Under the pieces are notes generated by a model. It worked only from the letters and a program-made list of their open reading frames with translations, ran no database searches and was not told the origin of the DNA. A program made the position numbers and the translations under genes. From contig DATMBF010000005.1 in assembly GCA_035559595.1 (NCBI GenBank), forward strand, positions 100,905 through 164,904: a DNA stretch of 64,000 bases. Reading direction: 5' to 3'. Shown here one piece after another: positions 41,596 through 50,502 of the stretch. Origin of the DNA: Bacteroidota bacterium (GTDB lineage Bacteria; Bacteroidota; Ignavibacteria; UBA10030). Position 1 is the stretch's first letter, and each line of letters begins with the position of its first letter.

Positions 41596-42030
41596 CTAAG
41601 GCTGCTTGCTTGAACTGACGAGAACGATGTTTCCCCAGTAGTCTGGATGAATGTAGTGGGTGATCAGACTGTTGAATTCAGGAACTCGGGAGGAAGGGAG
41701 GATAATGTAGAGAACTGCTTGAGAGCGATTGGATGAGTGAAATTGGTCGAGGAAGACGTTGTATTGTGTGAGCGCGTGCTCTGTTTCTAAGTCTGCCACC
41801 CCGGTTTTTGCCTCCCCTATAACGTATCGCTTGCGAACAGGGTCAAAAGCATAGATGTCCGGTGCTTTATCCTCCTGATCCCCGTAGCCATCATTGTGCA
41901 ACGGTTCGGGTTGCGGTAGACCCTCCAATCCCTCAACGGCCAGGATCTTGAAATTCTCTTGCTTGAAAATTTCAAGAAGCTCGATAACCAACGCATGATG
42001 TTTTTCCAGATCCTCCTGAGGACGCGCCAT
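41596..42030 (-). CDS. Hypothetical 144-aa protein translationally coupled to bshA
   Basis: Its start lies 3 nt after the bshA stop. 'DIYAFDP...YVIGEAKT' resembles a D...(E/D)xK nuclease-like core, but family assignment is uncertain. Its stop abuts the uvrD stop on the opposite strand. Confidence 0.4.
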   Translation of the reverse strand: MARPQEDLEKHHALVIELLEIFKQENFKILAVEGLEGLPQPEPLHNDGYGDQEDKAPDIYAFDPVRKRYVIGEAKTGVADLETEHALTQYNVFLDQFHSSNRSQAVLYIILPSSRVPEFNSLITHYIHPDYWGNIVLVSSSKQP

Positions 42031-42033
42031 TGC

Positions 42034-43170
42034 TTATTTCACAGCTACTTCCGATCCGTAGAGAATTCTCTCGTAGTGCCGCTCATACATCTTCACGATT
42101 TTCGAAGACTCGAATTGCATTGCCCGTGACCGGGCGGCTTTGGCAAACATCTGTTGCTTTGATGGGTTCGCAAGGAGATCGATTGCGTACCGTGCCATCC
42201 GATCGATGTCCCCGATCTCGGCAATATAACCGCACTCGCCATGAACAACGAGCTCGGGCAAACCGCCGACGCTTGAAGAGACAACCGGCACTTCGCATGC
42301 CATCGCTTCTAACGCAGAGAGGCCAAAACTCTCGGATTGGCTTGGCAGCAGGAAGAGATCGGCTGCCGAGAGGAGATCCACAATTTCCGTTTGCTTTCCG
42401 AGGAACTTCACAAGATGCTGAATACCGAGCTCGCGGCAGAGATGTTCACAGGCCGATCGGTCGGGACCATCACCGATCAGGAGCAGTTTCGACTTGATCT
42501 GTTTTTGGACAATGTCAAAAATTCTGATCACATCCTGCACACGTTTGACGGGACGGAAGTTTGACGTGTGGACGAGGATCTTCTCACTATTTGGCGCACA
42601 AATCTTTCGGACTTCCTCGGAAGGAATTCTACGGTATTTTGTCGTATCGATGAAGTTCGGAATCACTTCGATCTCTTTTTCGATCCCGTAGTTTGTTAAG
42701 GTTTTCTCCTTCAGGAATCGTGAAACGGCGGTAACGCCATCACTCTGTTCTATACTGAATTTCATCACCGGGAGAAAACTCGGCTCCAGTCCGACCAGGG
42801 TGATGTCTGTCCCATGAAGAGTCGTAATAACTTTCGCATTCGTCGGCGAGAGCATCTGCTTTGCGAGGTAAGCGCTTGTTGCGTGAGGGATGGCATAATG
42901 GCAATGAAAGAGATCGATCTTTTCGTAACGTGCAACTTCAACCATCTTGCTGGCAAGGGCGAGCGTGTAAAGAGGGAACTCAAAGAGCGGATAGCTTGTC
43001 ATTTCGACTTCATGGTAGGTAATATTCCCCTTGAAGCCAGTGAGCCGGATAGGCATGGCGTAGGTAATGAAATGGATGGAATGGCCGCGCTCTGCGAGAG
43101 CTTTACCTAGCTCGGTGGCCACCACGCCGCTCCCTCCGTACGTGGGATAACATGTAATCCCGATGTTCAT
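42034..43170 (-). CDS. bshA: N-acetyl-alpha-D-glucosaminyl L-malate synthase (bacillithiol biosynthesis glycosyltransferase, GT4)
   Basis: The N-terminus 'MNIGITCYPTYGGSGVVATELGKALAERGHSIHFIT' and 'HCHYAIPHATSAYLAKQML...TTLHGTDITLVG' closely parallel B. subtilis BshA ([39 protein letters not shown]...). Confidence 0.85.
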   Translation of the reverse strand: MNIGITCYPTYGGSGVVATELGKALAERGHSIHFITYAMPIRLTGFKGNITYHEVEMTSYPLFEFPLYTLALASKMVEVARYEKIDLFHCHYAIPHATSAYLAKQMLSPTNAKVITTLHGTDITLVGLEPSFLPVMKFSIEQSDGVTAVSRFLKEKTLTNYGIEKEIEVIPNFIDTTKYRRIPSEEVRKICAPNSEKILVHTSNFRPVKRVQDVIRIFDIVQKQIKSKLLLIGDGPDRSACEHLCRELGIQHLVKFLGKQTEIVDLLSAADLFLLPSQSESFGLSALEAMACEVPVVSSSVGGLPELVVHGECGYIAEIGDIDRMARYAIDLLANPSKQQMFAKAARSRAMQFESSKIVKMYERHYERILYGSEVAVK

Positions 43171-43467
43171 TGTGCAGAATTCCTCACGAGTATGTTAAAG
43201 AGAATTGGGTGGAGATACAAGCAAACGGCCGAAACTCTAACGCTAAAAAGAACTTACACTGAAAAGAAGTGTGCGCTATCTCGTTTGACGATATGATAAC
43301 ATGGATTGAACGACGTTCAGTTCAGAAAAGAAGTGGGAATTATTCCTATTTTTCCCGCTTGATTTAAGGAGTAAGAAAAGTTATATTGAGAGTGTCTGAA
43401 ATGATCATCAAGCGCCTAATTGCTTGATTTTTTAATACGCATATATTGGACTGAAGAAGTCGGATTT

Positions 43468-43872
43468 ATGTTGCAGCTTTCGAAACGTGTCGAATACGGT
43501 CTGATAGCACTTCGCCATATGGCGATGCATCCAATGGGAAAGGTCTTCACGGCCAAGGAACTGGCTCGGGAGTATGATATTCCCTATGAGCTCCTTGCCA
43601 AGGTGCTTCAGAAGTTATCACGTGCGCGTGTGGTCAATTCTCTGCACGGCGTGAAAGGCGGATACGCGCTCGCCCGAAATCCGTCAGACCTTACCATATC
43701 GCAGATCATTCGAATCATCGATGAAGAGAAACCGATGGTTGCGGAATGTTATGTTGACGGTCCGGATAGCTGTTATCTATTCGGCAATTGTACGATACGG
43801 CGCCCTCTTGGAAAGTTGCAGCGCAGCTTGAATGTGGTTTTTGATAGAATGACAGTTCAGGAAATCATTTGA
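43468..43872 (+). CDS. Rrf2 family transcriptional regulator (IscR/SufR-like, Fe-S sensing)
   Basis: 'MLQLSKRVEYGLIALRHMA' is the Rrf2 wHTH N-terminus. Three clustered Cys (CYVDGPDSCYLFGNC) form an IscR-type cluster ligand set. It sits directly upstream of the suf operon. The ORF track start at 43420 is a TTG start. Confidence 0.75.
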   Translation: MLQLSKRVEYGLIALRHMAMHPMGKVFTAKELAREYDIPYELLAKVLQKLSRARVVNSLHGVKGGYALARNPSDLTISQIIRIIDEEKPMVAECYVDGPDSCYLFGNCTIRRPLGKLQRSLNVVFDRMTVQEII

Positions 43873-43890: not shown

Positions 43891-44268
43891 ATGAGCGACC
43901 TCTTGAAACTTTTTACCGACAAGCGAAAGGAATTTCTCAACTTCCTTAAGTCGCGATATCACCTCTATCACCTCTCTAATGTATTCTTCCGTGACATGCA
44001 TTATGGCGTCATGGCCTTTCTGGCGATGAACGGCACGAAAGTGAAATACACTCAGGCAGAGGAACTGACAAAAAAGGTGATCGAATCTCTTGAGCAGGCG
44101 AACATTTTAGTGAAGGCCGATCGGCTGGCATGGGTGTTAACCTATCCTGACTTTAAGAAGCCACCCGTGAAACCTGCTGCTCCGGCAAAACCCTCAACGC
44201 CGGCGAAGCCGGCAGCTGCTCCGGCGAAACCACAGCCTACATCGGAAGCAACGCCTGCTTCTGCATAG
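43891..44268 (+). CDS. Hypothetical protein between the regulator and sufB, with a Pro/Ala/Lys-rich (PAKP-repeat) C-terminal tail
   Basis: A 125-aa ORF in the same orientation, tightly packed between the Rrf2 gene and sufB. The tail reads 'KKPPVKPAAPAKPSTPAKPAAAPAKPQPT'. No family recognised. Confidence 0.45.
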   Translation: MSDLLKLFTDKRKEFLNFLKSRYHLYHLSNVFFRDMHYGVMAFLAMNGTKVKYTQAEELTKKVIESLEQANILVKADRLAWVLTYPDFKKPPVKPAAPAKPSTPAKPAAAPAKPQPTSEATPASA

Positions 44269-44298: not shown

Positions 44299-45756
44299 AT
44301 GAGCACTGAGACCAACACTGTTGAACAATTAGCAATTCAAGAGTACAAGTACGGATTCGAAACCGCGGTCGAGTATGATGTCGTTCCGAAGGGGCTGAAT
44401 GAAGACATCATCAAGCTCATATGGGAGAAGAAGGGCGAACCCGACTGGATGCTCGAGTGGCGGCTGAAGGCCTTCCGTCATTGGGAGAAACTCTACAAGG
44501 ACGGAAAGGAACCCAAGTGGGCCAACATCAAATATGGCCCGATCGACTACCAGAGTATTCGCTACTACTCAGCACCGAAGAAGAGACCGAAACTCAATAG
44601 TCTCGATGAGGTAGACCCCGAGATCCGCAAGACGTTCGAGAAGCTTGGGATTCCGCTCGAGGAGCAAAAGCTCCTTGCCGGAGTTGCCGTCGACGCTGTC
44701 TTTGACAGTGTCTCCGTTGCAACTACGTTCAAGGCAAAACTGGAGGAGCTTGGTATCATTTTCTGTTCGATGACCGAAGCAATTCGCAATCATCCCGATC
44801 TCGTCAAGAAGTACCTTGGCTCGGTTGTTCCGTACTCCGACAACTTCTTCGCAGCCTTGAATTCCGCAGTCTTTAGTGACGGCTCGTTTGCATACATCCC
44901 CAAAGGTGTGCACTGCCCGATGGAGCTCTCAACGTACTTTCGCATCAACGCACGAGAGACAGGCCAGTTCGAGCGAACGCTCATTGTCGCCGACGAAGGC
45001 GCTTCCGTGAGCTACCTTGAAGGATGCACCGCTCCAATGCGTGATGAGAATCAGCTCCATGCAGCGGTTGTTGAGCTCGTTGCCCTCGATAATGCCACCA
45101 TTAAGTATTCAACGATCCAGAACTGGTATCCGGGGGACAAAGAGGGTCGTGGGGGGATCTATAACTTCGTGACCAAGCGAGGAAAAGCGCTCGGCAGGAA
45201 TTCGAAGATCACCTGGACACAGGTGGAGACCGGCGCCGCCATTACGTGGAAATACCCAAGCTGTTTGCTGATCGGCGAGAATTCCGTCGGCGAGTTTTAT
45301 TCCGTTGCGGTAACAAACAACTACCAGCAGGCAGATACAGGGACAAAGATGATTCACATCGGGAAGAACACACGGAGCACTATCGTTTCAAAAGGGATTT
45401 CTGCTGGATTCGGTCAAAACTCGTATCGCGGCCTTGTTCGTATTCAGAAAAGTGCGACTGGAGCGAGGAATTTCTCTCAGTGTGATTCATTGCTGATCGG
45501 AGATAAATGCGGTGCTCACACCTTCCCCTACATGGAGGTGCAGAACACCACTTCGAGCATTGAGCACGAGGCAACGACATCAAAGATCGGCGAGGATCAG
45601 ATTTTCTACTGCAAACAGCGCGGACTCTCAACAGAAGATGCAGTGAACATGATTGTCAACGGCTTCTGCAAAGAGGTCTTTCGCGAACTGCCGATGGAGT
45701 TTGCTGTCGAAGCGCAAAAACTTCTCAGTATTAGTCTGGAAGGCAGTGTCGGGTAA
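44299..45756 (+). CDS. sufB: Fe-S cluster assembly protein SufB
   Basis: A 485-aa protein. '[33 protein letters not shown]' is the SufB core, and the C-terminal 'IVNGF' region is present. Confidence 0.9.
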
Positions 45757-45789: not shown

Positions 45790-46548
45790 ATGCTGGAAAT
45801 CATAAATCTGCACGCTGGAATAGACGGAAAAGAAATTCTTAAGGGAATCGACCTTAAGGTGGGGAAAGGTGAAGTTCACGCCATTATGGGTCCGAACGGA
45901 TCGGGCAAAAGCACGCTCGCTCAAGTTCTTGCGGGACGAGACTCGTACGAGGTTACCGAAGGGAGCGTCATTTATGAGGGAAAAGATCTCCTCGAGCTCG
46001 ACCCGGAAGAGAGAGCTCGGGCGGGTGTGTTTATGGCGTTCCAGTATCCGGTCGAAATCCCGGGCGTGAGCAATACGTATTTCCTCAAGTCTGCACTGAA
46101 CGCAATCAGAAAACATCGTGGCCAGGAGGAGCTTGATGCGGTTGAGTTCCTTTCTCTGGTGAAACAACGAGCCAAGATGGTTGATATGGATGAAGAGCTT
46201 TTGAGCCGGCCGGTGAACCACGGCTTTTCTGGCGGCGAGAAGAAGCGAAACGAGATTTTTCAAATGGCGGTTCTGGAGCCTAAGCTCGCGATTTTGGACG
46301 AAACGGATTCCGGACTGGATATTGATGCCCTTCGGACCGTCGCTGCAGGCGTGAACAAGCTTCGGTCAAAAGACAACGCCGTGATCGTTGTGACACACTA
46401 TCAGCGGTTGCTGAACTACATCATCCCCGATTACGTCCACGTACTGCTTGATGGCCGTATCGTCAGGTCTGGCGGCAAGGAGCTTGCCCTCGAGCTTGAA
46501 CAAAAGGGGTACGATTGGCTTCGGGAGACGGCTGAAGTAACGGCGTAA
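45790..46548 (+). CDS. sufC: Fe-S cluster assembly ATPase SufC
   Basis: Walker A 'GPNGSGKST', the ABC signature 'FSGGEKKR' and Walker B 'LAILDETDSGLD'. Confidence 0.9.
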   Translation: MLEIINLHAGIDGKEILKGIDLKVGKGEVHAIMGPNGSGKSTLAQVLAGRDSYEVTEGSVIYEGKDLLELDPEERARAGVFMAFQYPVEIPGVSNTYFLKSALNAIRKHRGQEELDAVEFLSLVKQRAKMVDMDEELLSRPVNHGFSGGEKKRNEIFQMAVLEPKLAILDETDSGLDIDALRTVAAGVNKLRSKDNAVIVVTHYQRLLNYIIPDYVHVLLDGRIVRSGGKELALELEQKGYDWLRETAEVTA

Positions 46549-46562
46549 GGAGTGGACTGAGA

Positions 46563-47900
46563 ATGTCAACGACAGAAAAGCAAAACTTGTGGTACGTCTC
46601 TAACTTCGAGGCGCTGGAACGAAGTCTTAATGGTGAAGCGGCATCGTACGTGCATGCACTGCGGAAGGCTGCGTTCGACAAGCTTTCACAAACGGGGTTT
46701 CCGACAACGAAAGACGAAGAGTGGAAGTACACAGATGTATCCTCACTTGCGAAGACGGCATTTAAGCCGATTCTCTCTCCCAAAAAACCTTCCCTTGCGA
46801 TTGAACCGTATCTGTTGGGGCATCCTGAATGGAATCGCCTGGTGTTCGTCAATGGTCACTTCTTGATGGAGCTTTCGGATCTCCGCTCGCTTCCGAAGTC
46901 CGTGATCATGGGAAGTCTCGCTGAGGCGATGAAGTCGCACCCAAAGCTGATTGAGGAATATCTCACGGCGTGTTCTCGCTATGAACAAAACGCTTTTACC
47001 GCTTTGAATACGGCTTTTATTCAAGATGGTGCATTTGTCTATGTTCCAAAAGGAACCATCATCGAGCAGCCGCTTCATCTTCTCTTCATTTCTAGTCTGG
47101 AGGAGGGGGAATTCGTCTCTCATCCTCGCAACGTCATCATCGTTGGTGAAAGCAGTCAGGTTGCCATTCTGGAAAGTTACGTGAGCCCCCGAGAGCATCT
47201 CTCGTACTTCACGAATGCCGTAACCGAAATTTCTGTCGGTGAAAATGCGGTGGTGGAGTATGACAAGTTCCAGAATGAGAGCATGGCGGCCTACCACATT
47301 GCCTCGACATACGTGCGACAGCAGAGGAACAGCAATTACGCATCGAATCTCGTGACGTTCGGTGCCAAACTTTCGCGCAATAATGTCTTCGCTGTCCTTG
47401 ATGGTGAAGGAATCGAGTGCACGCTCAATGGCCTCTATCTTGGCACCGCAAACCAGCATATCGACAACCATACCACTATCGATCACGCGAAGCCGCATTG
47501 CAACAGCTTCGAGGTGTACAAGGGAATCCTTGACGGCAAGTCGAAGGGAGTTTTCAACGGAAAAATTATTGTCCGGAAGGATGCGCAAAAGACCGATGCG
47601 AAGCAGACAAACAAGAATCTTGTTCTTTCTGACGAAGCATCGATCGACACGAAGCCGCAATTAGAGATCTTTGCAAACGATGTGAAATGTACTCATGGAG
47701 CCACGATCGGGCAACTTGACCGTGAAGCCATTTTTTATTTGCAGTCCAGGGGCTTGAGCAAGGAAGACGCGCGCGATATGTTAATCCATGCTTTCGCGAA
47801 GGACTTGATCGATCGGATTAAAAGCGAAGGGGTTCGGACCAATCTGGAGCAGCTTATTTATGAGAGGCTCCGGGCCGGGAGAGTCAACACGAGGACGTAA
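46563..47900 (+). CDS. sufD: Fe-S cluster assembly protein SufD
   Basis: A 445-aa SufB/SufD-fold protein with the 'RNVIIVGESSQVAILESY' beta-helix region, positioned between sufC and sufS. Confidence 0.85.
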   Translation: MSTTEKQNLWYVSNFEALERSLNGEAASYVHALRKAAFDKLSQTGFPTTKDEEWKYTDVSSLAKTAFKPILSPKKPSLAIEPYLLGHPEWNRLVFVNGHFLMELSDLRSLPKSVIMGSLAEAMKSHPKLIEEYLTACSRYEQNAFTALNTAFIQDGAFVYVPKGTIIEQPLHLLFISSLEEGEFVSHPRNVIIVGESSQVAILESYVSPREHLSYFTNAVTEISVGENAVVEYDKFQNESMAAYHIASTYVRQQRNSNYASNLVTFGAKLSRNNVFAVLDGEGIECTLNGLYLGTANQHIDNHTTIDHAKPHCNSFEVYKGILDGKSKGVFNGKIIVRKDAQKTDAKQTNKNLVLSDEASIDTKPQLEIFANDVKCTHGATIGQLDREAIFYLQSRGLSKEDARDMLIHAFAKDLIDRIKSEGVRTNLEQLIYERLRAGRVNTRT

Positions 47901-49157
47901 ATGCATCTTGTCCACCCGATAGATACGCGCAAGGAAGAGGTGTTCAATGTGGAGAAGTTCAGGGAAGACTTCCCGATTCTCCAAAGGAAAGTGCACGGCA
48001 AGCCACTCGTCTACCTGGACAATGCGGCAACGACCCAAAAGCCGTATGTCGTGATCTACGCAGTCCAGAATTACTACTTAGAAACGAATTCCAACGTTCA
48101 CCGTGGCGTTCATTACTTGAGTGAGCTTGCAACGTACGAGTACGAAAAGGCGCGAGGAAAGATCAAACTGTTCCTCAACGCCGCAAGCGAGAAGGAGGTT
48201 ATCTTCACGCGGGGGACAACTGAAGGCATCAATCTTGTTGCCTCAAGTTACGGGCGACGGCATGTGAAGAAAGGGGATGAAGTTCTGATTTCCGCCATGG
48301 AACACCACTCGAATATTGTTCCGTGGCAACTTCTTTGCGAAGAGGTGGGTGCCCAGCTCACGGTCGTGCCGATCAATGACCGCGGTGAGCTTATCATTGA
48401 AGAGTATGAACGGCTCTTGAGTCCGAAGACGAAGATCGTCGCGATCACTCATGTGTCAAACTCGCTCGGTACGGTAAACGCGATCAAAGACATCATTCAA
48501 ATGGCACACCAACATGGAGTGCCAGTTCTCGTCGATGGGGCGCAGGCGGTTCAGCACATGAAAGTCGATGTTCGTGATTTGGATTGTGATTTTTATGTTT
48601 TTTCCGGACACAAAGCGTATGGGCCGACGGGAATCGGTGTGCTCTACGGAAAGCTACCGCTCCTCGAGGCAATGCCGCCGTATCAGGGCGGGGGTGACAT
48701 GATCAAGTCTGTGACGTTCGAGAAGACGACGTTCAACGATCTTCCCTACAAATTTGAAGCCGGTACGCCGAATATTGCCGGCGCGATCGGTCTCGGTATG
48801 GCGGTCGAATACCTCAAGTACGTGGGCGTGGAAAACATCGCAGCGTATGAGCACAAGTTGCTGGAGTATGCAACATCGGCCTTGTCGGAAATCAAGAACC
48901 TTCGGTTGATCGGGACTGCGCAGAACAAGACATCGGTTCTCTCGTTTGTCATGGATGGTGTCCACCCCCACGATATCGGAACAATTGTCGACCGTGAAGG
49001 TGTTGCAATACGGACAGGGCATCACTGCGCACAGCCGGTGATGGAGCGATTCGGAGTTCCGGCGACAGCCCGCGCCTCACTTGCTCTGTACAACACACGA
49101 GAGGAGATCGATGCACTTGTGCGCGCTCTGGAGAAAGTGAACGAGGTCTTTGCATAA
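47901..49157 (+). CDS. sufS: Cysteine desulfurase SufS (class V aminotransferase)
   Basis: 'YLDNAATTQKP', the PLP-lysine region 'FSGHKAYGPTGIGVLYG' and the active-site Cys loop 'RTGHHCAQP'. Confidence 0.9.
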   Translation: MHLVHPIDTRKEEVFNVEKFREDFPILQRKVHGKPLVYLDNAATTQKPYVVIYAVQNYYLETNSNVHRGVHYLSELATYEYEKARGKIKLFLNAASEKEVIFTRGTTEGINLVASSYGRRHVKKGDEVLISAMEHHSNIVPWQLLCEEVGAQLTVVPINDRGELIIEEYERLLSPKTKIVAITHVSNSLGTVNAIKDIIQMAHQHGVPVLVDGAQAVQHMKVDVRDLDCDFYVFSGHKAYGPTGIGVLYGKLPLLEAMPPYQGGGDMIKSVTFEKTTFNDLPYKFEAGTPNIAGAIGLGMAVEYLKYVGVENIAAYEHKLLEYATSALSEIKNLRLIGTAQNKTSVLSFVMDGVHPHDIGTIVDREGVAIRTGHHCAQPVMERFGVPATARASLALYNTREEIDALVRALEKVNEVFA

Positions 49158-49609
49158 TGTCGGAGCTCAAAGCGCTGTATCAGGATTTGATTCTGGATCA
49201 TAACAAGAGCCCGCGAAACTTCAGAGTTATCAACGACGCAGACCTGAAGGCCGAAGGCTTCAATCCGCTTTGCGGCGACCGCTACACGGTGTATGTGAAG
49301 ATGGGAAACGGGACGATTCAGGATGTTGCCTTCCACGGCTCAGGATGCGCAATCTCCAAAGCTTCTGCTTCAGTGATGACAACAGCGGTGAAGGGGAAGA
49401 CGAAGGAGGAAGCAGAACAACTGTTCGAGCGATTTCACAAGCTGGTGAAAGGTGAGTTGAACTCTGATGAGGAAATTCCTACCTTAGGAAAGCTTGCGGT
49501 GTTTGCCGGAGTTTCCGAATTCCCGGCGCGCGTCAAGTGTGCAAGTCTGGCATGGCACACGCTTCACGCAGCGCTGCATCAAGAACAAGAACCCGTTTCT
49601 ACTGAGTAG
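49157..49609 (+). CDS. sufU: SufU-type (IscU-like) sulfur acceptor / Fe-S scaffold-like protein
   Basis: 'NPLCGDRYTVYV...AFHGSGCAISKASASVMT' shows the three-Cys pattern with the SufU-type insertion. Confidence 0.8.
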   Translation: MSELKALYQDLILDHNKSPRNFRVINDADLKAEGFNPLCGDRYTVYVKMGNGTIQDVAFHGSGCAISKASASVMTTAVKGKTKEEAEQLFERFHKLVKGELNSDEEIPTLGKLAVFAGVSEFPARVKCASLAWHTLHAALHQEQEPVSTE

Positions 49610-49615
49610 GTAAAT

Positions 49616-49999
49616 GTGAAAGGAGAGAGTATGAACGAAATCACAATTCAAGAACGACCAGCCGTTTCCGAGGATATTGTTATTACTCCCCGGGCGGCCG
49701 AAGAGGTCAGAAAGATCAAGGCGGACAACAAGATTCCGGAGGCCTACGGGTTGCGGCTTGGAGTAAAAGGTGGAGGATGCTCGGGAATGTCATACGTTCT
49801 CGCCTTTGATGAAAAGCCGCGGGAAAGCGATAAGGTGCTCGAAATTGAAGGTTTGACGGTATACGTGGATCCGAAGAGCCTGTTCTATCTCTCAGGCACA
49901 ACGCTCGATTTCAACGACGGATTGAACGGTCGCGGCTTTGTGTTCAACAATCCCAATGCATCCCGCACGTGCGGTTGCGGACATTCGTTCGGAGTTTAG
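49616..49999 (+). CDS. sufA: HesB/IscA/SufA family Fe-S cluster insertion protein
   Basis: 'LRLGVKGGGCSGMSY' and a C-terminal 'CGCGHSFGV' are canonical A-type carrier motifs. An alternative start is MNEITIQ at 49631. Confidence 0.8.
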   Translation: MKGESMNEITIQERPAVSEDIVITPRAAEEVRKIKADNKIPEAYGLRLGVKGGGCSGMSYVLAFDEKPRESDKVLEIEGLTVYVDPKSLFYLSGTTLDFNDGLNGRGFVFNNPNASRTCGCGHSFGV

Positions 50000-50017: not shown

Positions 50018-50419
50018 ATGTCCGAGGAAGTGAAAAACAACAACGTTCACACCAAAGAAGTCAATTCACCAGGTGGTGCGACTGCGACAGGTGAAGCGGA
50101 TCAGCTACCGCTTGAGCAGAGAGTCTGGGCGGCGCTAAGGGAGTGTTATGATCCGGAGATCCCCGTGAATCTCGTCGATCTCGGATTGATCTACGAAATG
50201 AAAGTTGACGATTCTCTCCCCGGTGAGGCCGGAGTTTTCGTCAAAATGACGCTCACTGCTCCGGGTTGCGGTATGGGACCCATGATTGCCAACGACGTCA
50301 AGCGGCGTCTCCAGCTCGTTCAAGGGGTCAAGAATGTGTTCGTAGAGTTAACGTTCGATCCGCCCTGGAATCCAAGCATGATGACTGAAGCGGCCAAGCT
50401 CCAGTTGAACATGTTCTAG
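50018..50419 (+). CDS. sufT: DUF59 (MIP18/SufT-like) Fe-S cluster assembly accessory protein
   Basis: 'VWAALRECYDPEIPVNLVDLGLIYEMKV' and 'VKMTLTAPGCGMG' match the DUF59 domain found in SufT/PaaD. Confidence 0.7.
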   Translation: MSEEVKNNNVHTKEVNSPGGATATGEADQLPLEQRVWAALRECYDPEIPVNLVDLGLIYEMKVDDSLPGEAGVFVKMTLTAPGCGMGPMIANDVKRRLQLVQGVKNVFVELTFDPPWNPSMMTEAAKLQLNMF

Positions 50420-50466: not shown

Positions 50467-50502
50467 CAGTCCGACGATTGAATGGTCGGACTTTTGTTTT
50501 TG
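50467..50502 (+). terminator. Rho-independent terminator ending the suf operon
   Basis: AGTCCGAC-GATTGAATG-GTCGGACT hairpin followed by TTTGTTTTTG. Confidence 0.6.

What the first reader, a model, noticed from the sequence alone, without database searches (positions are those of the whole stretch)
43891..44268. Unannotated gene with a PAKP-repeat tail inserted between the Rrf2 regulator and sufB
The suf locus is otherwise textbook: Rrf2 regulator, sufB, sufC, sufD, sufS, sufU, sufA and sufT, in the same orientation and ending at a terminator. It contains a 125-aa ORF of no recognisable family that ends in a lysine/proline/alanine repeat (KPAAPAKPSTPAKPAAAPAKPQPT). Such a tail is typical of surface-anchoring or nucleic-acid-binding modules. 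Its position immediately after the Fe-S-sensing regulator suggests a co-regulated accessory factor, for example a regulator partner or chaperone.
Basis: seen in the sequence. Interest (0 to 1): 0.55.

Follow-up and report, generated by a model that had tools for sequence, protein, structure and literature searches.

The report
Orphan winged-helix gene in Fe-S operons
The ORF is a real gene for a small, cysteine-free, basic winged-helix protein from an undescribed family that almost always sits inside iron-sulfur-cluster assembly operons of uncultured Ignavibacteria-like Bacteroidota, so it is probably a new accessory factor of that pathway, although its exact job is unproven.

The parts
43407..43434 (+). 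Terminator-like hairpin (ATCAAGC-N8-GCTTGAT followed by a T-run) upstream of the Rrf2 operator. Its role is unexplained.
   Evidence: Present at the same position in 34 of 80 loci (3.1 expected from shuffles), with 21 different complementary arm sequences; 25 of the 34 are followed by a T-run. No Rfam family matches.
43442..43467 (+). Predicted Rrf2 operator, an IscR type-1-like palindrome (core GGACTgaagaAGTC at 43448-43461), immediately upstream of the Rrf2 start.
   Evidence: It is the only exact GGACT-N5-AGTC site in the 64 kb window. Across the fetched loci, 33 of 34 exact GACT-N5-AGTC sites lie 80 nt or less upstream of an Rrf2 start. The consensus resembles the published IscR type-1 motif.
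43468..43872 (+). Rrf2-family regulator with three clustered Cys (C-X7-C-X5-C), IscR/SufR-like; first gene of the operon.
   Evidence: Pfam Rrf2 8.4e-31. NCBIfam rrf2_super passes its cutoff; suf_reg_Xantho scores 78.7 bits, below its cutoff. Three Cys.
43891..44166 (+). Gene X, residues 1-92: the conserved winged-helix domain (helices 2-10, 12-23, 33-46, 53-69; strands 30-32, 73-75, 80-83).
43969..44007 (+). Family signature H27-L-S29-N30-V-F32-F-R34-D35-M-H-Y38-G39 at the strand-1/helix junction. E57 (44059-44061) is also near-invariant.
   Evidence: In 130 representatives below 60% identity: S 128, N 126, F 130, R 123, D 130, E57 118.
44167..44268 (+). Gene X, residues 93-125 plus stop: a disordered Ala/Pro/Lys tail (PAKP-type) that is not conserved in sequence or presence.
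   Evidence: pLDDT below 50. Tail statistics. No DNA tandem repeat.
44299..45756 (+). sufB
   Evidence: Pfam SUFBD_core 8.3e-78.
45790..46548 (+). sufC (ABC ATPase)
   Evidence: Pfam ABC_tran, plus its position between sufB and sufD.
46563..47900 (+). sufD
   Evidence: Pfam SUFBD_core 7.9e-90 and SufBD_N.
47901..49157 (+). sufS (class-V cysteine desulfurase)
   Evidence: Pfam Aminotran_5 7e-154.
49157..49609 (+). sufU
   Evidence: Pfam NifU_N 6e-22.
49616..49999 (+). sufA (A-type carrier). The start is either GTG 49616 or ATG 49631; this was not resolved.
   Evidence: Pfam Fe-S_biosyn 7.5e-23.
50018..50419 (+). sufT (DUF59/FeS_assembly_P)
   Evidence: Pfam FeS_assembly_P 1.7e-15.
50468..50501 (+). 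Intrinsic terminator closing the operon (AGTCCGAC-N9-GTCGGACT followed by TTTTGTTTTT).
   Evidence: Sequence. Fold of -14.9 kcal/mol, z = -3.8.

Best explanation
X is a real cytoplasmic protein. It is co-transcribed with sufBCDSUAT from a promoter controlled by the Fe-S-sensing Rrf2 (IscR-like) repressor. It belongs to an undescribed, lineage-restricted family found in Ignavibacteria/Chlorobiota-type Bacteroidota MAGs. The family's conserved unit is an ~90-residue, Cys-free, mostly basic winged-helix domain. The Ala/Pro/Lys tail is a variable, disordered, weakly cationic appendage. I propose that X is a non-catalytic adaptor or modulator of Fe-S cluster biogenesis. In this model it uses the invariant S-N-x-F-x-R-D / E57 patch to dock onto an acidic component shared by SUF, ISC and A-type-carrier modules (a scaffold or carrier protein, or a desulfurase-scaffold complex), and the tail acts as a flexible spacer or electrostatic tether. 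Functionally this would resemble IscX in the ISC system, without being related to it. Shown: gene reality, fold class, conservation pattern, operon linkage and the Rrf2 operator. Inferred: protein-binding rather than DNA-reading, and the identity of the partner.
For: The gene is real and conserved. The winged-helix model is confident and has only generic winged-helix neighbours, many of which are protein-protein interaction domains such as MukF-N, JetB, cullin WHB, Cdt1 and STN1. Across 91 non-redundant loci the gene immediately downstream is sufB (78), sufA (6), sufC (3), IscU (1) or SOD (1); the upstream gene is Rrf2 (46) or a class-V desulfurase (at least 30). The family crosses machineries: an ISC operon Rrf2-IscS-X-IscU-IscA-HscB-HscA-SOD-Fdx-IscX, IscS-X-IscU-IscA, Rrf2-X-A-type carrier-SOD, X-A-type carrier(-SOD) without Rrf2, and Rrf2-desulfurase-X-SOD. 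Linkage to several alternative Fe-S modules, including some without a neighbouring regulator, points to the assembly or delivery process rather than to one promoter. The near-invariant residues cluster at the strand-1/helix-2 junction. The exposed face of the would-be recognition helix (positions 55, 58, 62, 65, 69) is variable and mostly acidic. Only one conserved sequence motif, the IscR-type operator, was found in the promoter regions. X is basic (pI 9.7; 78% of family domains have pI above 8), whereas every Suf protein of the operon is acidic to neutral (pI 4.6-6.3). IscX is a precedent for a small operon-encoded modulator that binds IscS and IscU (PMC8593673).
Against: There is no direct evidence of any protein partner, and complex prediction could not be run. 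The fold, the basic pI, the net-positive tails (89% of tails, acquired in at least three unrelated forms) and the promoter-proximal position are equally what a nucleic-acid-binding protein would show. R34 at the N-terminus of the first HTH helix could be a phosphate contact. No single Fe-S component is present in every context, so the common-partner argument is soft. The surface-exposure argument rests on helical periodicity, not on model coordinates.
Confidence: 0.42

Rival explanations
1. X is a nucleic-acid-binding winged-helix protein. It could be a co-regulator acting with (or, in operons lacking Rrf2, instead of) the Rrf2 repressor. Alternatively it could be a stress-induced nucleoid- or RNA-binding protein with a WH domain plus cationic tail, loosely like a linker histone, expressed together with Fe-S repair genes and SOD.
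For: Winged-helix fold. The domain is basic in 78% of members and the tails are net positive in 89%. Different subfamilies acquired different basic tails. The gene sits immediately after the regulator, or first in the operon where no Rrf2 is adjacent. A conserved hairpin of unknown function lies in the operon's upstream region and could be a structured target.
Against: No transcription-factor or linker-histone HMM is matched by any of 172 members scanned. The exposed face of the putative recognition helix is variable and acidic, with an invariant Glu, and the wing loop has no conserved basic residue. Apart from the IscR-type operator, no second conserved sequence motif was found upstream of the operons, and none was found upstream of X in the loci without Rrf2. 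Tail K+R is only about 11%. About a quarter of members have no tail.
Confidence: 0.3
2. X is a metal (iron) chaperone or donor for cluster assembly. It would use the conserved His27, Asp35, His/Gln37, Tyr38 and Glu57 as a labile Fe(II) site and serve any scaffold (SufBCD, IscU or an A-type carrier).
For: The conserved polar residues are of the His/Asp/Glu/Tyr type, with no Cys. The family is independent of machinery type. The iron source for bacterial Fe-S assembly is still unknown (PMC8593673).
Against: His27 is replaced by Tyr, Phe or Asp in about 20% of representatives and position 37 is mostly Gln. The protein is basic, unlike the acidic iron-binding proteins CyaY and IscX. Winged-helix domains are not a known iron-chaperone fold.
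Confidence: 0.1
3. X is a secreted or surface-anchored protein whose Pro/Ala/Lys tail is a cell-envelope spacer. This was one of the first reader's suggestions.
For: Pro/Ala-rich spacers occur in envelope proteins such as TonB (general knowledge).
Against: There is no signal peptide or hydrophobic segment (maximum 19-aa hydropathy 0.87). The N-terminus is part of the folded helical domain. The tail is dispensable in a quarter of the family. The operon context is entirely cytoplasmic.
Confidence: 0.02
4. The ORF is spurious: a non-coding spacer between Rrf2 and sufB that happens to be open.
For: No family annotation; the tail is low-complexity.
Against: Frame-specific codon usage. 183 homologue clusters with invariant residues at 20-70% identity. 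A confident fold. Independent public gene calls match exactly.
Confidence: 0.01

Closest known systems
IscX (YfhJ, Pfam PF04384), the small accessory protein of the ISC operon
   Same: A small, non-catalytic, Cys-free protein encoded inside an Fe-S assembly operon. Its helix-strand-helix-helix core is of winged-helix type (from my knowledge of the YfhJ structure). IscX modulates IscS/IscU (PMC8593673), which is the kind of role proposed here.
   Different: No detectable homology: hhalign probability 0.7-0.9%, and no member hits PF04384. X is basic and about 90 aa with a beta-hairpin wing and an extra N-terminal helix, whereas IscX is acidic and 66 aa. X sits upstream of the scaffold gene rather than at the operon end. 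X coexists with a true IscX in one ISC operon, so it is not a substitute.
Rrf2/IscR and other winged-HTH transcription factors
   Same: Winged-helix fold; similar size; basic; encoded at the promoter-proximal end of the same operon.
   Different: No HMM match to any transcription-factor family. The signature lies at the strand-1/helix-2 junction rather than on the recognition helix. The exposed face of the recognition helix is acidic and variable. There are no sensing Cys and no identifiable operator of its own.
Linker histone H1/H5 and bacterial H1-like proteins (winged-helix globular domain and/or Lys/Ala/Pro tail, e.g. AlgP, Hc1; from general knowledge)
   Same: The architecture: a winged-helix domain followed by a disordered Ala/Pro/Lys-rich C-terminal tail with net positive charge.
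   Different: The tail has only 9-12% Lys, against roughly 40% in H1 tails. The tail is absent in about 25% of members. No member matched Pfam's linker-histone model among the families listed. The strict Fe-S operon context is unlike nucleoid proteins.
Established SUF accessory proteins (SufE, SufU, SufA, SufT)
   Same: Small proteins co-transcribed with sufBCD and sufS.
   Different: These all carry conserved Cys or defined folds and HMMs. X has no conserved Cys and matches none of them. SufU, SufA and SufT are separately present in the same operon.

Membership tests
IscX (PF04384) | Sequence match to the family HMM or profile | tested here: not met
   None of 116 + 56 members hits PF04384 at E up to 10 or 1. 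hhalign of the X profile (240 sequences) against an IscX profile gives probability 0.7%, P = 0.077, over 31 columns.
IscX (PF04384) | Small acidic protein | tested here: not met
   X has pI 9.7 and the family domain has median pI 9.0. IscX acidity is taken from its sequence and general knowledge.
IscX (PF04384) | Sole occupant of this role in its operon | tested here: not met
   An ISC operon carries both X and a PF04384 protein.
Winged-HTH transcription factors (Rrf2, MarR, ArsR, GntR and similar) | Winged-helix fold | tested here: met
Winged-HTH transcription factors (Rrf2, MarR, ArsR, GntR and similar) | Match to a curated transcription-factor family model | tested here: not met
   Only sub-threshold WH_RGF3 (17.5 bits against a cutoff of 27). 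No transcription-factor family appears in Pfam or NCBIfam.
Winged-HTH transcription factors (Rrf2, MarR, ArsR, GntR and similar) | Conserved polar or basic DNA-reading residues on the recognition helix and wing | tested here: inconclusive
   The exposed positions of helix 53-69 are variable and acidic, and the wing loop is not conserved. Exposure was inferred from periodicity, not from coordinates.
Winged-HTH transcription factors (Rrf2, MarR, ArsR, GntR and similar) | A cognate conserved operator | tested here: inconclusive
   Only the IscR-type palindrome is conserved upstream. Nothing comparable lies upstream of X in the loci without Rrf2, but only three such loci were available.
Winged-HTH transcription factors (Rrf2, MarR, ArsR, GntR and similar) | DNA binding | not testable with these tools
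   Needs EMSA or ChIP.
Linker-histone-like (winged helix + Lys-rich tail) | Strongly Lys-rich C-terminal tail present throughout the family | tested here: not met
   Tails are K 8.9%, A 28%, P 20%, with median K+R of 11%. 64 of 256 members have a tail of 15 aa or less.
Known SUF sulfur-relay and carrier proteins (SufE, SufU, SufA, SufT) | Family HMM match and conserved Cys ligand or persulfide site | tested here: not met
   No HMM hits. 107 of 130 representatives have no Cys and none is conserved.
Secreted or surface-anchored proteins | Signal peptide or membrane anchor | tested here: not met
   Maximum 19-residue Kyte-Doolittle hydropathy is 0.87, and the N-terminus is an amphipathic helix of the folded domain.
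Rrf2(IscR)-controlled Fe-S regulon member | Same transcription unit as Fe-S assembly genes, downstream of an IscR-type operator | tested here: met
   Gaps of 18 and 30 nt with no internal terminator. Operator at 43448-43461, conserved in 33 of 80 loci as an exact core. Transcription itself was not measured.

The most novel reading that the evidence does not exclude
X is a machinery-independent Fe-S biogenesis factor: a new class of adaptor that serves SUF, ISC and stand-alone A-type carriers alike. It might deliver iron, or couple scaffold to carrier under oxidative stress. No dedicated protein is established for such a role in bacteria.
Probability: 0.12. Interest if true: 0.8.

Novelty: new variant of a known kind. 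Interest (0 to 1): 0.55.

Why it matters
Fe-S cluster assembly is one of the most studied essential pathways, yet its accessory layer is incomplete. The iron source is still unknown, and the roles of small modulators such as IscX and CyaY are debated (PMC8593673). X is an orphan protein family that is essentially never found outside Fe-S operons and that follows SUF, ISC and A-type-carrier modules alike. That makes it a concrete, testable candidate for a missing accessory function in a whole bacterial lineage. At minimum, the result allows more than 180 clusters of 'hypothetical proteins' to be annotated as one Fe-S-operon-associated winged-helix family with a defined signature (SNxFxRD). It also defines the IscR-like operator of these uncultured organisms.

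Tried and rejected
1. Homology to IscX. It was prompted by a suggestive local alignment (VRFTDMH against VFFRDMH). I verified my recalled IscX sequence, built profiles and ran hhalign. The result was probability 0.7%. I rejected homology and kept IscX as a functional analogy. The coexistence of X with a true IscX also rules out substitution.

2. Known-family searches, all negative: Pfam, NCBIfam and PHROGS on the window protein; Pfam on 116 close and 56 distant members; PDB sequence profiles.

4. Tail as a DNA repeat. TRF finds none.

5. Known RNA element around the gene or leader. Rfam finds none.

6. The upstream inverted repeat as the Rrf2 operator. Rejected because its arms vary between lineages. 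The real operator is the GACT-N5-AGTC palindrome next to it.

7. Search for a cultured host. None was found among named sources.

8. Domain fusions as functional clues. Only one apparent chimera with FolD-like sequence (P0196) and some mis-called N-terminal extensions, judged to be artefacts.

9. A read-through 'fusion' AlphaFold run of Rrf2-X or X-SufB. I considered it and did not run it, because the tool returns no inter-domain error map and the result could not be interpreted.

10. The metatranscriptome paper on Ignavibacteria (PMC8510549) contains nothing on this gene.

Full report
**1. Observation**

The ORF is exactly where the finding places it: ATG 43891 to TAG 44268 on the + strand, 125 aa. 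Its translation ends in KKPPVKPAAPAKPSTPAKPAAAPAKPQPTSEATPASA. Pfam confirms the neighbours as Rrf2 (43468-43872), sufB, sufC, sufD, sufS, sufU, sufA and sufT.

Intergenic gaps are short: 18 nt from Rrf2 to X and 30 nt from X to sufB. No terminator-like site lies between these genes. The operon ends in a strong hairpin plus T-run at 50468-50501.

The ORF is coding. Its codon-usage log-odds against the other operon genes is +0.175 in frame, similar to 0.186 for Rrf2, and negative in the other five frames. GC by codon position matches the operon. The identical protein is already in GenBank as HWP81224.1, 'hypothetical protein VNN76_01060 [Bacteroidota bacterium]'. It is therefore unnamed rather than unannotated.

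**2. The family**

A word-seeded search found 116 homologues (E from 1e-46 to 1e-13). All are labelled 'hypothetical', none has a Pfam domain, and every named source is an Ignavibacteria, Ignavibacteriota or unclassified Bacteroidota MAG. An exhaustive HMM search of 1.84 billion representative proteins found only 183 clusters. A scan of one genome per GTDB species found relatives in 128 species, and all 80 listed records are MAGs. One distant subfamily is labelled Chlorobiota. No cultured host was identified.

Alignment shows that only about the first 90 residues are conserved. In 130 representatives below 60% identity, the near-universal residues are:

- S29 (128 of 130)
- N30 (126)
- F32 (130)
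- R34 (123)
- D35 (130)
- E57 (118)
- an aromatic residue at position 81 (130)
- H27 (104)
- Y38 (104 Tyr, 22 Phe)

No Cys is conserved; 107 of 130 representatives have none. The domain is basic in most members, with median pI 9.0 and 78% above pI 8.

**3. The tail**

- Of 256 members with a complete domain end, 64 have 15 or fewer residues after the domain, 147 have 16-60 and 45 have more than 60.
- Composition is A 28%, P 20%, K 9%. Median K+R is 11%, and 89% of tails are net positive.
- Other subfamilies carry unrelated tails: repeats of G-L-P-P-L-K-S-S ending in PLPPLKSSTPAGKK, or helical KLAELQAKMAAAKAAREG repeats.
- Among close relatives, the first ~15 tail residues (FKKPxVKPAAPAKP) are conserved.
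- AlphaFold gives pLDDT below 50 for the tail.
- There is no DNA-level tandem repeat.
- There is no signal peptide or hydrophobic segment.

**4. Fold**

With the 116-sequence alignment, AlphaFold2 models residues 1-90 at pLDDT 80-91. The helices are 2-10, 12-23, 33-46 and 53-69, and the strands are 30-32, 73-75 and 80-83. This is the canonical winged-helix order (a1-b1-a2-a3-b2-b3) with one extra N-terminal helix.

Sequence profiles of both close and distant members find nothing in the PDB. No member reaches any Pfam or NCBIfam threshold. The best hit is WH_RGF3 at 17.5 bits against a cutoff of 27.

**5. Genomic context (the decisive evidence)**

I used the window's own Suf proteins as tblastn probes on 91 non-redundant loci.

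| Position relative to X | Gene | Number of loci |
|---|---|---|
| Immediately downstream | sufB | 78 |
| Immediately downstream | sufA | 6 |
| Immediately downstream | sufC | 3 |
| Immediately downstream | IscU | 1 |
| Immediately downstream | SOD | 1 |
| Immediately downstream | contig end | 2 |
| Immediately upstream | Rrf2 | 46 |
| Immediately upstream | second class-V desulfurase, itself preceded by Rrf2 | 30, plus several only partly aligned |

The linkage survives deep divergence and a change of machinery:

- Rrf2-X-sufCBD-Rieske-sufS-sufU-sufA/T-SOD
- Rrf2-IscS-like-X-sufCBD...
- A full ISC operon, Rrf2-IscS-X-IscU-IscA-HscB-SIS-HscA-SOD-Fdx-IscX
- IscS-X-IscU-IscA without Rrf2
- Rrf2-X-A-type carrier-SOD
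- X-A-type carrier(-SOD) without an adjacent Rrf2
- Rrf2-desulfurase-X-SOD

X is therefore a constant companion of Fe-S biogenesis genes in general. It is not an insertion peculiar to this genome, and it is not SUF-specific.

**6. Regulation**

Directly upstream of the Rrf2 start lies a palindrome with consensus AATAtAGGACT-N5-AGTCGGATTT. The exact core GACT-N5-AGTC occurs 34 times in about 1 Mb of fetched loci. Of these, 33 are within 80 nt upstream of an Rrf2 start, with the mode at -19.

In the window, the only exact GGACT-N5-AGTC site in 64 kb is at 43448-43461. The motif closely resembles the published IscR type-1 site ATASYYGACTRWWWYAGTCRRSTAT (PMC3899308, PMC6599224). The window's Rrf2 has three clustered Cys.

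The operon, X included, is thus most likely autorepressed by a cluster-sensing IscR-like protein. This is an inference from the motif and from family knowledge (PMC8593673). I found no second conserved sequence motif that could be an operator for X. I also found none upstream of X in the three loci without Rrf2.

**7. Mechanism**

X has no Cys, so it cannot be a persulfide relay or a classical cluster ligand. Two readings remain.

(a) A protein-binding adaptor or modulator of assembly or delivery. The arguments for it are:

- The invariant residues lie at the strand-1/helix-2 junction, not on the recognition helix.
- The solvent-facing positions of helix 53-69 are variable and mostly acidic.
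- The family follows alternative Fe-S modules even where no regulator is adjacent.
- X is basic, while all Suf proteins of the operon are acidic or neutral.
- Many of its structural neighbours are interaction-type winged-helix domains.
- IscX provides a precedent.

(b) A nucleic-acid-binding co-regulator or nucleoid protein. The arguments for it are the fold, the basic charge, the repeated independent acquisition of cationic tails, and the promoter-proximal position.

I put (a) at about 0.4 and (b) at about 0.3. An iron-chaperone variant of (a) gets about 0.1. The surface-anchor and spurious-ORF readings are effectively excluded.

**8. The IscX test**

A local alignment (IscX VRFTDMHQWI against X VFFRDMHYGV) suggested a remote relationship. 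I verified the IscX sequence and compared profiles. The hhalign probability was 0.7-0.9% with P = 0.077 over 31 columns. No member hits PF04384. The charge is opposite, and one operon encodes both proteins. Homology is not supported. The resemblance is at most one of role.

**9. Novelty and verdict**

It is partly wrong: the tail is not the functional core, surface anchoring is unlikely, and the gene is not a local insertion.

X defines an undescribed winged-helix family with essentially obligate linkage to Fe-S biogenesis operons in a lineage known only from MAGs. It is a new variant within a known kind of system, namely small operon-encoded Fe-S accessory proteins. Interest is moderate to good at 0.55. 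The association is unusually clean and crosses machineries. However, the function is unproven, and the lineage has no cultured representative among the sources found here.

Noticed in passing
window 43407-43434 (and about -55 to -70 nt from the Rrf2 start in L001-L094): A terminator-like hairpin plus T-run lies just upstream of the Rrf2 operator, in a divergent intergenic region. It is conserved in position in 34 of 80 loci (3.1 expected by shuffling, 4.8% in random windows). It has 21 different but complementary arm sequences, and 25 of 34 are followed by a T-run. There is no Rfam match. It could be a leader attenuator, an insulator terminator or a promoter-embedded structure; this is unresolved.
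   Followed up: partly
window 43442-43467; loci L001-L094 upstream of Rrf2: An IscR type-1-like operator (AATAtAGGACT-N5-AGTCGGATTT) defines the likely binding site of the Rrf2 regulator in these uncultured Bacteroidota. There is only one exact core site in the 64 kb window, so no further regulon members are visible here.
   Followed up: yes
L001 14405-15730; L088 13668-15079; L094 7664-10534; ISC contig; L078 6279-6905: An Fe/Mn superoxide dismutase gene, often followed by a gene for a stand-alone LON substrate-binding domain protein (PF02190), recurs at the downstream end of these Fe-S operons. This suggests a combined Fe-S/oxidative-stress unit. The window's operon lacks both.
   Followed up: no
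P0063, P0092, P0099, P0117, P0128 (long-tail homologues); P0203, P0210: Some homologues have 100-160 residue tails. One type has repeated G-L-P-P-L-K-S-S motifs and a conserved C-terminal PLPPLKSSTPAGKK peptide. Another has three KLAELQAKMAAAKAAREG helical repeats. These look like short linear motifs for an unknown partner.
   Followed up: no
window 41596-42030 (-) and 42034-43170 (-): A 144-aa ORF with no Pfam hit lies next to a GT4 glycosyltransferase upstream of the operon. A pair of the same sizes (144 aa and 378 aa) occupies the same position in L004/L005 and L006, so it is a second conserved 'hypothetical' gene in this neighbourhood.
   Followed up: no
about 35 of the loci L001-L092 (e.g. 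L003 4803-5975, L092 5823-6989): Many related operons carry a second, IscS/NifS-like class-V desulfurase between Rrf2 and X, in addition to sufS. The head of those operons (Rrf2-IscS-X) has the same gene order as the ISC operon, followed by a SUF body.
   Followed up: partly
window 47900/47901, 49157 and 49616-49631: sufD and sufS abut with no gap, and sufS and sufU overlap by 1 nt, which suggests translational coupling. The sufA start is ambiguous (GTG 49616 or ATG 49631).
   Followed up: no
P0196 (245 aa): One database protein joins the first ~65 residues of X to a FolD-like sequence. This is probably an assembly or frameshift chimera rather than a real fusion.
   Followed up: no
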